This document shows positions 12,001 through 15,000 of a DNA stretch of 20,338 nt, one piece after another; position 1 is the stretch's first letter; each line of letters opens with the position of its first letter. A program made the position numbers. This DNA is from Verrucomicrobiota bacterium (GTDB lineage: Bacteria > Verrucomicrobiota > Verrucomicrobiia > Limisphaerales > CANJSG01), in assembly GCA_038209745.1 (NCBI GenBank), contig JBBQXJ010000084.1:1-20338 (forward strand), written 5' to 3'.

Positions 12001-15000
12001 CGGCTGCGTGGTTTCGCCGCCCGGGCCTTGGCTCCGAAGGCGGAAGCCGTCGCCGCTGCACCGATCAAGAAGACCACGCCGCTGCCGGACTTCGCCCAGT
12101 TCGGTTCGATCCTGAAGAAGCCGATGTCCAGCCTGCGCAAGGTCATCGCGCAGCGCATGGCGGAAAACGCGGCGACCATCCCGCACGTCACCCAGTTCGA
12201 GAGCGTGGACATCACGGATCTGATGGCGTTGCGCAAACGCCATATGGCGGCCTACGAGGCCAAGGGCGGCAAGCTCACGCTGACCTGCTTCGTCATCAAG
12301 GCGCTGACCCAAACGCTGAAGAAGTATCCCATCTTCAATTCGTCCGTGGACGAGGCGAACGAGGAGTTCATCCTCAAGGAATACATCAACATCGGCCTCG
12401 CGGTGGACACCGAGCAGGGCCTGTTCGTCCCCGTCATCAAGGACGCGGACAAGAAGGATCTCCTCACGCTCTCGAAGGAACTGGCCGACCTCGCCGTCCG
12501 CACCCGCGACCGCAAGATCACGGCGGCCGACTTGAGTGGTGGCTCGTTCACCATCTCGAACCAGGGCGCGATCGGCGGCGGCCACTACACCCCGATCATC
12601 AACAAGCCTGAAGTCGCCATCCTCGGCGTGGGCAAGGGCAGCTTCCAGGCGGTCGTCACCGACCCGAAGGCTGGCAAGATCGAATCGCGCCTGATGATGC
12701 CCATCGCGTTGAGCTACGACCACCGCGCCATCGACGGCGGCGACGCCGTGCGCTTCACGCAGGACTTGATGGCGGCCCTCGCGGCGCTGAACGACGACTC
12801 GCTGAAACTTTGAACGGAGTGATGGAGTAACGGAGCACTGGAGTGATGATGGAAGGCAGTTACCGCAACCGAAACCGTGGCTACCAGCAACTGCGAGTCT
12901 GGCAGGACGCGACGGATTTCTATGCGATGAACTCACGGGTCTTCCGATCGTGGCCTTTCGAGCTGAAGAAAGTGGCTTCGCAGGCGATCGCTTCCGCCGA
13001 CTCCGTCCATCGCAATATTGCTGAAGGCTACGCACGTCGTTCTTTGAAGGAATACATTCAGTTCCTCTACATCGCGGCCGGCTCGTTGGCGGAATCCGTT
13101 TCCGGGTTCCATGCCTACGCCAAGGCCGAGCAAATCACGACCGCCCAGTTCGATGAGCTGAACACTCTGGCCTATAAACTTGAAAACGGACTCTTGCGGC
13201 TGATTGAAAGCTTGGAGCGCAAGAAGGCCGACGGCGATTGGGTTGACACGCTGGTCTTGAAGGACAGCAACGAAGCCTATGATCTGACCGAGACAGCCTC
13301 GCCGTCCCCGATCCGATACTCCAAGACTCCTTCTCTCCAGCACTCCGTTTCCCCCCTAGTTTTCCAACATGGACCCGATCAAAACTGAAGTGGTTGTTCT
13401 CGGCGCCGGCCCCGGGGGCTACGCCGCCGCATTCTACGCCGCAGACCTCGGCAAAAAGGTCATCCTCGTCGAGCACGACAAGCTCGGCGGTGTCTGCCTG
13501 AACCGAGGCTGCATCCCTTCCAAGGCGTTGCTGCACGCCACGAAACTCATTGGAGAAGCCAAGCACGCGGCCACGTTCGGCCTCGGCTTCCAGGCACCGA
13601 CCATCGATCTCGACAAGCTCCGCGCCTGGAAGGATTCCGTGGTCGCCAAGAACAGCGGCGGCATCGCGGCTCTGGCGAAGATGCGCGGCGTGACCGTCAT
13701 CATGGGCAAGGGTTATTTCGAGGATTCCTCCACCCTCCGCGTCGAGACCGCCGAAGGCCAGCAGCGCGTTCAGTTCGAGAAGGCGATCGTCGCCATCGGT
13801 TCGCGTCCGGCCCTGCCCAAGGCTTTCGACCTCGGCAATCCCCGCGTGATGACCTCCACCGAGGCGCTGGAAGTGAACGACATTCCCGAGAATCTGCTCG
13901 TCGTGGGCGGAGGCTACATCGGCATGGAACTGGGCACCGTCTACGCGAACCTCGGCTCCAAGGTCACCGTGATCGAGGCGATGGACGGCATGTTGATGGG
14001 GGCGGATCCGGACCTCGTCCGGCCGGTGCAGCAGCTCGCGGCGAAGAACTTCAAGGAGCTCCGCTTCAAGGCCAAGGTCGGCAAGATGGCCACCAAGGGG
14101 AAGCAGATCCAGGTGGTGTCCGAATACAACGGCAAGACCTACGACGAGCTCTACGACCGGGTGCTGGTCTCCGTCGGCCGTGTGCCCAACGGCCAGGACG
14201 TCGGCCTGGAGAACACCAAGGTGGAGCGCGACGAAAAGGGCTTCATCAAGGTGAACGAAAAGATGGAGACGGCCGACGCGAACATCCTCGCCATCGGCGA
14301 TATCGCCGGCGGAATTCTTCTCGCCCACAAAGCCTCGAAAGAGGCGCGCGTGGCGGTCGAAACCCTCATCGGTGAACCGATGTCCAAGAAGGACAGCGCG
14401 ATCCCGGCCGTGGTCTTCACCGATCCCGAGATCGCGTGGGTCGGCCTGACCGAGACCGAAGCCAAGGCCAAGGGCATCGAAGTGAAGGTGGCCAAGTTCC
14501 CCTGGGCCGCTTCAGGACGGGCGCTGACCTACGACCGTCCCGACGGCGTGACCAAGATCATCGCCGAGCCGGGCACCGACCGGTTGCTGGGCGTCGGTAT
14601 CGCGGGCCACGGAGCGGGCGAATTGATCGCCGAGGCCGCGTTGGCCCTCGAAATGGGGGCGAACGTCAAGGACCTCGCCCTGACCGTGCATCCGCACCCC
14701 ACTTTGTCCGAAACGATCATGGAGGCGGCCGAAGTCTACTACGGCCACTCGGCCCACTTCTTCACGAAGAAGCCGGTCCACTGATTTTCCGGCGACGAAT
14801 TGCGTCGAAGGTCTGAAGCTGCCGCCGCGGCTTTGGACCTTTCGTTTATGAACCACCGATGAACGCCGACCAAAGTTCCCAACTACGGGTGACGGTTGAC
14901 GGAAAGTTTCTTCGCCTGGGCGCGGAAAAATTCTGCATCAAGGGGGTCACCTACGGGCCCTTCGCCCCGAACGGCGCGGGCGAATTCTTCGCGTCGCCCG

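What a model noticed while it worked through the whole genome (the two positions that open the first line are those of the whole stretch)
12814..13420. Single-gene cassettes nested at operon junctions: four-helix-bundle (23S_rRNA_IVP) and GxxExxY genes come and go between [...]
All five 23S_rRNA_IVP (Avd-like four-helix-bundle) genes and all three PDDEXK_3 'GxxExxY' genes of this genome, like several toxin-antitoxin pairs and orphan ORFs, sit as short, lower-GC, co-oriented inserts exactly between two genes of one operon (for instance between the E2 and E3 genes of pyruvate dehydrogenase); at each of seven informative junctions between one and all six of the six congeneric genomes have an empty junction (7-88 nt between the same two genes), while a few carry the same insert and a few a different one. 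I read them as promoter-less mobile cassettes that home to gene junctions inside transcription units, the protein-operon counterpart of the intervening sequences of 23 [...]
Evidence so far: Places: g03351 IVP between aceF-like E2 g03350 and lpd g03352 (C84:12846-13388, GC 0.55 against 0.64-0.65); g00909 IVP between lutA and lutB (C12:11315-11770); g03535 IVP between two ABC half-transporters (C95:3840-4211); g00277 IVP between PSCyt and DUF1501 genes (C3:13217-13666); g02531 IVP (C51:2235-2582); g00901 GxxExxY between two permease genes (C12:4083-4481); g03450 GxxExxY between cysH and cysD (C89:17312-17719); g01921 GxxExxY after thrS (C32:44662-45084); also DUF433+DUF5615 between cysI and cysH, DUF4160+DUF2442 between metK and ahcY, HEPN g00541 between serS and glgA, DUF559 g00128 between ribH and ribBA, orphan g03501 between gatA and gatC. 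The flanking pairs are neighbours in [...]
(Added by a program. Inside this text positions count along the whole contig: contig position 1 is position 1 of the stretch shown here. "Call 12" and the like, gene names such as g00115 and contig names such as C1 are that model's own, and its searches are not shown. The text may have been shortened before it was handed on; [...] marks where a part breaks off. The agent that wrote the report below was given it as the finding of a first reader that could run no searches.)

Follow-up and report, generated by a model that had tools for sequence, protein, structure and literature searches.

The report
Hairpin-armed four-helix-bundle gene cassette in operon

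Summary
Window 12810-13360 is a 550-nt, lower-GC insert between the E2 and lpd genes. It carries a co-oriented PF05635/TIGR02436 gene. Four of six congeners have 18-19 nt at this junction and two have a hicA pair.

The gene is enclosed by inverted arrays of an 8-nt unit (TGGAGTNN / NNACTCCA). Flank complementarity ranks 5th of 1397 small genes, and four IVP/GxxExxY genes are in the top six.

Orthologous cassettes sit at E2|lpd in 13 further genomes of 8 other families. ORF-less remnants occur in two more families. Close paralogues with the same arms occupy at least six other gene-pair junctions. Whole arrays switch core on both arms together (GGAGT/ACTCC, GGGGT/ACCCC, GGAAT/ATTCC, GGATT/AATCC). 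dN/dS is about 0.1.

For this locus the evidence favours an ancient cassette kept in this genome and lost in its congeners, not a recent gain. AU tests do not reject junction-specific clades.

How it moves is unknown: no target duplication, no reverse transcriptase found, no RNA data.

Earlier agents of this scan noted the same architecture on other DNA. I found no paper describing it. It is an rRNA-IVS-like element living in mRNA.

The parts
11392..12813 (+). Upstream flank: dihydrolipoamide acyltransferase (E2) gene. Its TGA stop (12811-12813) abuts the first repeat unit.
   Evidence: 2-oxoacid_dh 8e-79, Biotin_lipoyl, E3_binding. One search gives the stop position relative to the array.
12813..12847 (+). 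Upstream arm: four 8-nt units (GGAGTGAT GGAGTAAC GGAGCACT GGAGTGAT, 12816-12847). It fills the whole E2-IVP spacer. The last unit holds the IVP start ATG (12846).
   Evidence: direct-repeat family D1; inverted repeat I1, arms 12813-12844 / 13318-13349, 32 nt, 78% complementary..
12846..13388 (+). IVP gene (Avd-like four-helix-bundle protein). The part conserved with orthologues ends near 13290. In this genome the frame reads on through the downstream arm and 20 nt into lpd.
   Evidence: PDB 2GSC, 3.5e-8; alignment A1; AF2 model, pLDDT 86.7, four long helices; TM 0.94 to 2GSC; also matches 2RLD and Avd 4DWL/8UB7.
13312..13354 (+). Downstream arm: ACTCC-type units, complementary to the upstream arm.
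   Evidence: I1-I3; the arms pair with each other in the MFE and centroid folds of the whole insert.
12810..13360 (+). Extent of the insert relative to the empty junctions of congeners.
   Evidence: in G001, G003, G005 and G006 the match to the query (window 12200-14000) breaks at query position 607-610 and resumes at 1162..
13369..14784 (+). Downstream flank: dihydrolipoyl dehydrogenase (lpd).
   Evidence: TIGR01350, 508 bits against a cut-off of 408.8.

Best explanation
The insert is an IVS-type hairpin cassette. It is a promoter-less gene for an Avd-like four-helix-bundle protein (IVP), bracketed by two inverted arrays of an 8-nt unit (TGGAGTNN upstream, NNACTCCA downstream). It lies in the spacer between two genes that are probably co-transcribed.

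Shown:
- The architecture.
- Its recurrence, with the same arms, around every close homologue.
- Its age at this junction: orthologues in 8 other families and gutted remnants in 2 more.
- Purifying selection on the protein.
- Concerted, compensatory change of whole arm arrays.
- Decay into ORF-less hairpins.
- Occupation of at least six other gene-pair junctions by close paralogues.
- Occupation of this same junction by a second IVP lineage and by a hicA pair in other genomes.

Inferred:
- The cassette is transcribed with the pdh genes.
- The upstream arm serves as an expression adaptor. It ends translation of E2 and offers a GGAG motif and the AUG for IVP.
- The two arms pair and loop the gene out as in 23S rRNA IVSs, making a possible RNase III substrate.
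- The IVP oligomer binds the repeated unit.
- New junctions are colonised rarely, by an unidentified DNA-level step.
- Most of the patchy distribution comes from loss, helped by the instability of long inverted repeats, and from homologous exchange through conserved flanks.

In this genome the E2|lpd cassette is a retained ancestral copy. Its six congeners lost or replaced it.
For: Arms:
- Inverted repeat of 32 nt, 78% complementary. The arms close the insert in the MFE and centroid folds.
- Flank-complementarity scan of 1397 small genes: IVP_C12 ranks 2, GxxE_C89 3, IVP_C84 5, IVP_C3 6, GxxE_C32 27.
- GxxE_C12 arms were found in the inverted-repeat census.

Recurrence:
- 28 of 29 IVP homologues have periodic 8-nt arms. 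Only L066 lacks an upstream array.
- In 36 of 59 IVP and GxxExxY cassettes a 5-mer occurs at least 3 times upstream and its reverse complement at least 3 times downstream. The direct-orientation control gives 4 of 59.

Compensatory array switches:
- GGGGT/ACCCC in L047, L049, L052.
- GGAAT/ATTCC in L057.
- GGATT or GGATG / AATCC or CATCC in the clade at 45-50% identity.
- CACGAAT/CACGGAT versus CGCGAAT in GxxExxY cassettes.

Age at this junction:
- 13 of 21 close homologues lie between E2 and lpd.
- The IVP tree groups by junction, with this genome's copy sister to the rest. This matches the flank tree.

Remnants:
- G017 has a 203-nt internally deleted copy.
- G396 has a 136-nt ORF-less GGAGT/ACTCC hairpin at E2|lpd, while an intact copy sits before a ketohexokinase gene.
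- G004 has a gutted lutA|lutB cassette.

Other occupants of E2|lpd: a second IVP lineage in G030 and G098, and hicA pairs in G002 and G004.

Selection: dN/dS is 0.05-0.16 in 6 of the 7 pairs where dS could be measured.

Expression adaptor:
- The E2 stop is TGA in 12 of 14 occupied junctions, against 7 of 19 empty ones.
- The array begins within 5 nt of the stop in 12 of 14.
- The IVP ATG abuts the last unit in about half.

Other:
- No sigma-70-like promoter or intrinsic terminator between 10500 and 15000.
- An RNase III gene is present.
- Protein-unit covariation hint. Residues 14-15 are QQ in 17 of the 18 GGAGT-armed proteins of alignment A1 and QK in the other. They are QE in the GGGGT-armed one, MK in the GGAAT-armed one, and MK or RK in the seven of the 45-50% clade.
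Against: - No RNA data exist for this organism, so transcription, stem formation and processing are unobserved.
- The whole insert does not fold better than shuffles (z = -1.1).
- Mismatches in the arms show no excess of sense-strand G.U over A.C: IVP 22 against 43, GxxExxY 22 against 19. RNA-level pairing is therefore not specifically supported.
- No target-site duplication, recombinase or transposase is linked to the cassette.
- AU tests do not reject strict junction-specific clades (p = 0.31) or vertical descent within genus g22 (p = 0.06). Evidence for movement rests on deep paralogy and on the G396 case.
- Three of the nine genes in this genome (C95 intact; C51 and C14 degraded) have no clear arms.
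- The stop/start/GGAG content of the unit is specific to this arm type. Other arm types (GATGCCG, CACGAAT) lack it.
- The QQ/MK covariation rests on three switch lineages only, and one of them is a long branch.
Confidence: 0.6

Rival explanations
1. Resident accessory gene, never mobile. An old small gene with a regulatory hairpin was present at these junctions in the ancestor of the order. The patchy pattern is differential loss only.
For: - Each junction type is one clade in the IVP tree. AU tests do not reject this.
- IVP divergence (63-71% identity) matches that of the flanks.
- dN/dS is about 0.1.
- Direct remnants show loss.
Against: - The same arm-plus-ORF unit stands at 7 or more unrelated junction types. 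Each needs an insertion event.
- Two IVP lineages with different arms, a hicA pair and repeat elements occupy the very same E2|lpd spacer in different genomes.
- Within the genus, cysH|cysD holds a GxxExxY cassette, a different hairpin, or 20 nt.
- G396 has a gutted copy at E2|lpd and an intact close relative elsewhere.
Confidence: 0.2
2. The arms come first. Tandem-unit hairpins (STRR/REP-like repeats) spread on their own through intergenic spacers. IVP and GxxExxY genes are secondary cargo that inserts into, or is captured between, such hairpins, as IVSs sit on rRNA helix tips.
For: - ORF-less hairpins with the same unit types are common in this genome.
- GxxE_C32 is flanked by two complete about 140-nt hairpins, and GxxE_C12 is followed by one.
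- G005 has an ORF-less CACAGATG hairpin at cysH|cysD.
- A true RAYT-like Y1 transposase with its own REP hairpins exists in the genome.
Against: - Arm core and protein clade go together over long times.
- At orthologous sites the ORF-less forms still hold the ORF's first and last codons: G017 and G004. There they derive from full cassettes by deletion.
- Empty congener junctions at E2|lpd hold no hairpin.
Confidence: 0.12
3. RNA-mediated spread. The cassette is cut out of the host transcript at its stem, joins another transcript in sense orientation, and returns to DNA through a reverse transcriptase helped by the Avd-like protein. This would explain strict co-orientation and confinement to transcribed spacers and rRNA.
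For: - IVP shares the fold of Avd, the reverse-transcriptase partner of diversity-generating retroelements.
- All 9 genes here and all 29 homologues are co-oriented with their flanks.
- No target duplication was seen.
Against: - No RVT_1 reverse transcriptase was found in this 92%-complete genome.
- GxxExxY cassettes share the architecture but encode a nuclease-fold protein, not an Avd-like one.
- Co-orientation is equally explained by selection for expression of a promoter-less gene under purifying selection.
Confidence: 0.05
4. Chance or assembly artefact: an over-called ORF in a misassembled spacer.
For: The genomes are draft bins.
Against: - Strong family matches.
- A confident four-helix model.
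- Orthologues at the same junction in 13 independent assemblies.
- Purifying selection.
Confidence: 0.01

Closest known systems
ORF-bearing intervening sequences (IVS) of 23S rRNA (Coxiella burnetii helix 45, Leptospira; S23p protein). PMC4990558, passages read.
   Same: - A gene of the same protein family (PF05635), of roughly 430-550 nt.
[quoted passage not shown]
- Lower GC than the host.
- Sporadic among relatives.
- No own promoter; embedded in a host transcript.
- Long suspected to be a mobile or selfish element of unknown mechanism.
   Different: - It sits between protein-coding genes, not in an rRNA helix.
- The arms are arrays of an 8-nt unit.
- The protein is under purifying selection here, whereas the Coxiella paper concludes that S23p is probably not made in vivo.
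- RNase III cleavage is untested here.
Short tandemly repeated repetitive (STRR) sequences of filamentous cyanobacteria, e.g. the hairpin between hupS and hupL. PMC2670836, passages read.
   Same: - Tandem short units (7 bp there) in intergenic spacers of operons.
- Able to form hairpins.
- Function unknown; transcript stability or translational coupling has been proposed.
- They resemble the ORF-less hairpins of this genome and the gutted cassettes.
   Different: - Described as ORF-less repeats in another phylum.
- No link to IVP or GxxExxY genes is made in the passages I read.
REP/REPIN elements with their RAYT (IS200-like Y1) transposase (recalled knowledge). An instance is present in this genome at C137.
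   Same: A single gene flanked by inverted copies of a hairpin repeat, whose ORF-less copies are scattered in intergenic DNA.
   Different: - IVP has no catalytic fold and GxxExxY is PD-(D/E)XK-like. Neither is a Y1 transposase.
- The arms are arrays of short units, each cassette lineage with its own variant.
- Copy numbers are low.
Avd of diversity-generating retroelements (PDB 4DWL, 8UB7).
   Same: The same four-helix-bundle fold. The closest solved structures, 2GSC and 2RLD, each list five chains.
   Different: - No reverse transcriptase was found in the genome.
- No template or variable repeats were looked for.
- Sequence identity to Avd is only 12-14%.
Transcribed miniature inverted-repeat elements such as Neisseria Correia elements or enterobacterial ERIC (recalled, not read here).
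   Same: Inverted-repeat elements co-transcribed with neighbouring genes, whose RNA hairpins are processed by RNases.
   Different: - Those are non-coding, multi-copy and have defined target duplications.
- The element here carries a conserved gene, and no duplication is seen.

Membership tests
PF05635 / TIGR02436 (23S_rRNA_IVP, four-helix-bundle protein) | Profile score above the curated cut-off | tested here: met
   Pfam 69.5 bits against 33.8; TIGR02436 73.9 bits against 24.
PF05635 / TIGR02436 (23S_rRNA_IVP, four-helix-bundle protein) | Up-down four-helix bundle like XCC0516, BT_0352 and Avd | tested here: met
   AF2 model with pLDDT 86.7 and helices 17-34, 38-63, 67-93, 99-128. Foldseek TM 0.94 to 2GSC, 0.85 to 2RLD, 0.87 to 4DWL.
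PF05635 / TIGR02436 (23S_rRNA_IVP, four-helix-bundle protein) | Conserved S..NIAEG..RR motif | tested here: met
   In alignment A1, S53 and I58 are invariant and N57, E60, G61, Y62, R64 and R65 are at least 90% conserved.
23S rRNA intervening sequence (the element) | Inserted in a 23S rRNA helix (9, 25 or 45) | tested here: not met
   It lies between the E2 and lpd protein genes.
23S rRNA intervening sequence (the element) | Bordered by complementary sequences that form a stem enclosing the ORF | tested here: met
   Rank 5 of 1397 in the flank scan.
23S rRNA intervening sequence (the element) | Excised from the transcript by RNase III | not testable with these tools
   An RNase III gene is present. 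No RNA run was listed.
23S rRNA intervening sequence (the element) | Sporadic among close relatives and lower GC than the host | tested here: met
   19 of 26 relatives are empty at the junction. GC is 0.56 against 0.63-0.64.
REP/REPIN-RAYT or MITE-type transposable element | Cognate transposase, or many near-identical copies, and target-site duplication | tested here: not met
   - The cargo is IVP, not a transposase.
- Besides this cassette, five other GGAGT-type arrays were found in the genome, two of them small hairpins.
- No duplication is seen at occupied against empty sites.
DGR accessory protein Avd | Encoded next to a reverse transcriptase with template and variable repeats | tested here: not met
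   RVT_1 was not found in the 92%-complete genome. The flanks are E2 and lpd.
Integron gene cassette | Single attC at the 3' end, in an array beside an integrase and attI | tested here: inconclusive
   Repeats lie on both sides of the ORF and the cassette stands alone between housekeeping genes. No integrase search was run.
STRR-type tandem-unit hairpin | Tandem short units in inverted arrays in an intergenic spacer | tested here: met
   The difference is that the unit is 8 nt and a gene lies in the loop.

The most novel reading that the evidence does not exclude
IVP and GxxExxY cassettes form one undescribed, widespread class of bacterial genetic element that lives only in transcribed spacers: operon junctions and rRNA helices.
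- The periodic inverted arms are the recognition arrays of the encoded protein, either an Avd-like oligomer or a PD-(D/E)XK nuclease.
- The upstream array doubles as a frame-independent stop/restart adaptor that lets a promoter-less gene be expressed wherever it lands.
- The unexplained tandem heptamer/octamer hairpins of bacterial spacers (STRR-like repeats) are the gutted, ORF-less descendants of these cassettes.
Probability: 0.3. Interest if true: 0.85.

Novelty: new variant of a known kind. Interest (0 to 1): 0.72.

Why it matters
The 23S_rRNA_IVP family has had no known function since the rRNA intervening sequences were described. GxxExxY proteins and tandem-unit intergenic hairpins are equally unexplained.

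Here all three are tied into one architecture. It occurs in ordinary operons of free-living bacteria, with dozens of natural variants:
- compensatory arm switches;
- gutted copies;
- the same junction occupied by different lineages.

This makes the question experimentally tractable. Bind the protein to its arm. Map RNA ends. Test mobility. Swap arm cores.

It also matters for annotation. Such inserts interrupt tightly coupled gene pairs (E2|lpd, cysH|cysD, lutA|lutB, ABC pairs) and may alter their co-expression.

Tried and rejected
- **RNA evidence:** no RNA holder was listed for window 11392-14784.
- **RNAduplex scan:** energies of 90/120-nt flanks did not discriminate in this high-GC genome. 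The cassettes ranked 189-1299 of 1397. I replaced this with an alignment score.
- **Periodicity filter:** a strict filter on census arms kept only 6 of 188 inverted-repeat pairs and missed degenerate units. I dropped it.
- **Whole-insert fold:** z = -1.1, not significant.
- **Wobble asymmetry as a test for an RNA-level stem:** IVP arms show G.U 22 against A.C 43. GxxExxY arms show 22 against 19. This gives no support. The A.C excess in IVP arms is unexplained and the rows are related.
- **AU tests for horizontal exchange or nested transposition:** p = 0.06 and 0.31, not significant.
- **Congener junctions for C3, C51 and C32:** only paralogues or one flank were recovered. G006 was left out of the seven handle searches.
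- **Pfam on other repeat-enclosed ORFs:** no family for C12:13295-13699, C12:13749-14096, C75, C86, C5, C78 or window 6183-7079. Only the C137 ORF matched, as Y1_Tnp.
- **Reverse transcriptase:** not found in this genome.
- **Literature:** six searches found no paper placing IVP or GxxExxY genes in hairpin cassettes inside protein operons. They were family names and accessions; GxxExxY/PDDEXK_3; IVS/S23p/RNase III; S23 ribosomal protein, four helix bundle protein, Avd-like; IVS + four-helix bundle + inverted repeats + intergenic; STRR. Only listings were seen, apart from the three papers cited. NCBIfam's own comment texts could not be seen.
- **Not run:** pentamer prediction (complex prediction). 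Oligomeric state is inferred only from the five chains of 2GSC and 2RLD.
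Full report
**What is in the window**

The E2 acyltransferase gene (11392-12813) and the lipoamide dehydrogenase gene (13369-14784) lie on the + strand. 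Between them is a 181-aa ORF (12843-13388; likely start ATG 12846). It matches 23S_rRNA_IVP (PF05635, 69.5 bits, cut-off 33.8) and TIGR02436 'four helix bundle protein' (73.9 bits, cut-off 24).

The 555 nt between the E2 stop and the lpd start have GC 0.56, against 0.63 and 0.64 in the flanks.

An AlphaFold model built on 29 homologues has pLDDT 86.7 and four long helices. It superposes on:
- XCC0516 (2GSC), TM 0.94;
- BT_0352 (2RLD);
- the DGR protein Avd (4DWL, 8UB7) (sequence match to 2GSC 3.5e-8).

No sigma-70-like promoter or intrinsic terminator is found between 10500 and 15000. That is weak evidence, because the promoter types of this phylum may differ.

**The inverted arms**

The ORF is enclosed by an inverted repeat, 12813-12844 against 13318-13349 (32 nt, 78% complementary).

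- The upstream arm is four 8-nt units: GGAGTGAT GGAGTAAC GGAGCACT GGAGTGAT (12816-12847).
- The downstream arm is the complementary ACTCC array.
- The arms pair with each other in the MFE and centroid folds of the insert.
- The insert as a whole does not fold better than shuffles (z = -1.1).

I scored complementarity between the upstream and downstream flanks of all 1397 genes of 60-260 aa in the genome. The ranks were IVP_C12 2, GxxE_C89 3, IVP_C84 5, IVP_C3 6 and GxxE_C32 27.

GxxE_C12 also has arms, but its right arm lies 130 nt past the stop. Three genes have none: C95 (intact), and C51 and C14 (both degraded ORFs).

Each cassette has its own unit: GGAGTGAT, TCAGTnn, GATGCCG, CACGAATnn, CACAGATGGA or TAATCTGCGCTGATC.

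**The genome-wide claim**

All nine are co-oriented with both neighbours. The background frequency is 1712 of 3367 genes, so p is about 2e-3.

Pfam on the flanks confirms:
- PSCyt/PSD1 | DUF1501;
- two ABC half-transporters;
- two BPD_transp_2 permeases;
- LutA | LutB;
- CysH | CysD;
- two livG/livF-like ATPases.

C51 (beta-lactamase family | MacB permease) and C32 (GH32 | ThrS) are not obvious pairs.

**The E2|lpd junction in relatives**

Thirty relatives were searched and 29 had a match. In 26 both flanks lie in one locus. Of those 26, 19 have 10-72 nt and 7 are occupied:

| Genomes | Content of the junction |
|---|---|
| G027, G010 | orthologous IVP cassettes |
| G017 | 203-nt internally deleted copy that keeps the first about 20 and last about 15 codons and the arms |
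| G030 | a different PF05635 gene with GTCCTC/GAGGAC arms (duplex -77 kcal/mol) |
| G002, G004 (congeners) | a HicA-toxin pair without arms |
| G009 | repeat-rich DNA |

The other four congeners have 18-19 nt.

**The E2|lpd cassette across the order**

In a sample of 401 genomes of the order (this one included), 39 have a match at E <= 1e-10 and 21 hold a close homologue at 54-71% identity.

- Thirteen of the 21 lie between E2 and lpd, in families f5, f14, f22, f35, f51, f52, f68 and f81.
- Eight lie at other junctions: PSD1 | DUF1501, epimerase | C-methyltransferase (2), PSD4-PSCyt3 | DUF1552 (3), FtsX | FtsX, and one before a ketohexokinase gene.
- A clade at 45-50% identity sits between an ABC ATPase and a MacB permease in six genomes.
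- All are co-oriented with their flanks.

In genomes whose copy sits elsewhere, the E2|lpd junction shows three states:
- G396 has a 136-nt ORF-less GGAGT/ACTCC hairpin;
- G098 has the second IVP type;
- G036 has 9 nt.

**History**

In the IVP tree every junction type is one clade. The E2|lpd copies plus the G396 copy form a starred clade (96/86). This genome's protein is sister to the rest (91/89).

The tree of E2 C-terminus plus lpd N-terminus likewise sets this genus apart from the other occupied lineages. On that weakly resolved tree the occupied state needs 9 changes, of which only 2 are forced by starred branches. Rows L039-L052 were picked because they carry the gene, so proportions from that tree mean nothing.

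AU tests do not reject holding the 14 E2|lpd proteins together (p = 0.31) or the four proteins of genus g22 together (p = 0.06).

My reading is:
- one old insertion per junction, then descent and frequent loss;
- rare colonisation of new junctions;
- occasional replacement.

For this genome that means retention, with loss or replacement in the six congeners. Two events suffice if this genome branches first in its genus, which the polytomy allows.

**Selection and arm evolution**

dN/dS is 0.05-0.16 in six of the seven pairs with measurable dS. It is 0.57 in one pair with dS of only 0.05.

All but one of the 29 homologues have periodic arms. Whole arrays change core on both sides together:
- GGGGT/ACCCC in three g22 genomes;
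- GGAAT/ATTCC in G098;
- GGATT or GGATG with AATCC or CATCC in the distant clade.

Unit numbers differ between close relatives, for example three against six downstream units in L056 and L059.

The C89-type GxxExxY gene behaves the same way.
- It matches in 248 of 401 genomes at 1e-15. This tally includes the unpublished genome G310; no other claim rests on it.
- Of 29 loci, 13 are at cysH|cysD and about nine lie before a valS-like gene.
- The arm cores are CACGAAT/CACGGAT or CGCGAAT, always matched on the other arm.

Across both families, 36 of 59 cassettes have a 5-mer at least 3 times upstream and its reverse complement at least 3 times downstream. The direct-orientation control gives 4 of 59.

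**What the arms might do**

- The E2 stop is TGA in 12 of 14 occupied junctions, against 7 of 19 empty ones.
- The array begins within 5 nt of the stop in 12 of 14.
- The IVP ATG abuts the last unit in about half of them.
- The unit GGAGTGAT holds GGAG, TGA and ATG. With an 8-nt period, TGA falls in each frame within three units. This follows directly from the sequence.

That suggests a stop/restart adaptor, but other arm types lack these motifs.

Wobble statistics do not single out the sense RNA.

Residues 14-15 of the protein track the arm core:
- QQ in 17 of the 18 GGAGT-armed proteins of alignment A1, and QK in the other;
- QE in the GGGGT-armed one;
- MK in the GGAAT-armed one;
- MK or RK in the seven of the distant clade.

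This is a hint of protein-arm recognition. It rests on three switch lineages only.

**Turnover inside the genus**

| Junction | State in each genome |
|---|---|
| lutA\|lutB | G003 same cassette (87% DNA identity); G004 gutted, with arms and ORF ends kept and the middle replaced by another hairpin repeat; G001 an unrelated 166-aa ORF without arms; G005 3 nt |
| cysH\|cysD | this genome and G006 carry the GxxExxY cassette; G005 a 127-nt ORF-less CACAGATG hairpin; G001, G003 and G004 have 20 nt that still contain GTGGTTAAG, the right end of that hairpin |
| Permease pair | 4 of 4 informative congeners empty |
| ABC pair | one same, one filled by REP-like hairpins, one empty |

ORF-less hairpins with the same unit types are scattered through this genome.

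**Comparison with what is known**

- Coxiella paper (PMC4990558, passages). It describes a 428-nt IVS bordered by inverted repeats, cut by RNase III in mid-stem, lower in GC than the genome, and encoding a four-helix S23p. It records the old idea that the ORF serves mobility.
- CPR study (PMC11270868, passages). It calls 23S_rRNA_IVP functionally uncharacterised.
- Nostoc paper (PMC2670836, passages). It describes 7-bp STRR hairpins between hupS and hupL, of unknown function.
- My six literature searches found nothing that places IVP or GxxExxY genes in such cassettes inside protein operons.

Earlier agents of this scan reported the same architecture in other genomes. I reached the arms independently before reading those notes.

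**Open points**

- There is no RNA evidence.
- No recombinase or target duplication is known.
- No reverse transcriptase was found.
- An RNase III gene is present.

Noticed in passing
window 6042-6130 and 7116-7204 (ORF 6183-7079, - strand): An 89-nt inverted repeat pair, the highest score in the genome census, encloses a 298-aa ORF with no Pfam match. It may be an unclassified insertion element.
   Followed up: partly
G000 contig C12:13287-14462 (L004:13287-14462): CACAGATG-type arms enclose two low-GC ORFs (13295-13699 and 13749-14096) with no Pfam family. This may be other cargo in the same kind of hairpin, just downstream of lutB.
   Followed up: partly
G000 contig C86:10625-10929 (L110): The top-ranked flank inverted repeat in the genome (ACCGCAGAAAACGCGGACCACGCAGAA) encloses a 75-aa ORF of no known family, between two co-oriented genes.
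   Followed up: partly
G000 contig C137:742-2069 (L112): An IS200-like Y1 transposase gene (1606-1989, Y1_Tnp 8e-16) is flanked by its own REP-type hairpins. This is a classical RAYT/REP arrangement in the same genome.
   Followed up: partly
cysH|cysD junction of G001, G003, G004 (L093, L092, L094) and G005 (L095): The 20-nt 'empty' spacers contain GTGGTTAAG, identical to the right terminus plus flank of the CACAGATG hairpin present in G005. This is either an excision footprint or a preferred target. The genus tree does not fit a single event.
   Followed up: partly
arms of the 29 IVP cassettes (L038-L066): Mismatches in the best arm pairing are A.C (43) twice as often as G.U (22) on the sense strand, the opposite of what an RNA stem in the mRNA predicts. 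GxxExxY arms show no bias (22 against 19). This is unexplained and may be compositional.
   Followed up: partly
G001 lutA|lutB junction (L088:2351-2848, - strand): A 166-aa low-GC ORF with a D...EYK motif, no Pfam family and no arms fills the junction that holds an IVP cassette in this genome.
   Followed up: partly
G000 contig C14:56127-56569 (L005): A sixth, degraded PF05635 copy (profile positions 7-77 only, no arms) lies between two livG/livF-like ABC ATPase genes.
   Followed up: yes
window 14859-17432: The gene after lpd encodes an 857-aa fusion of a GH2-like TIM-barrel region and a family-2 glycosyltransferase.
   Followed up: no
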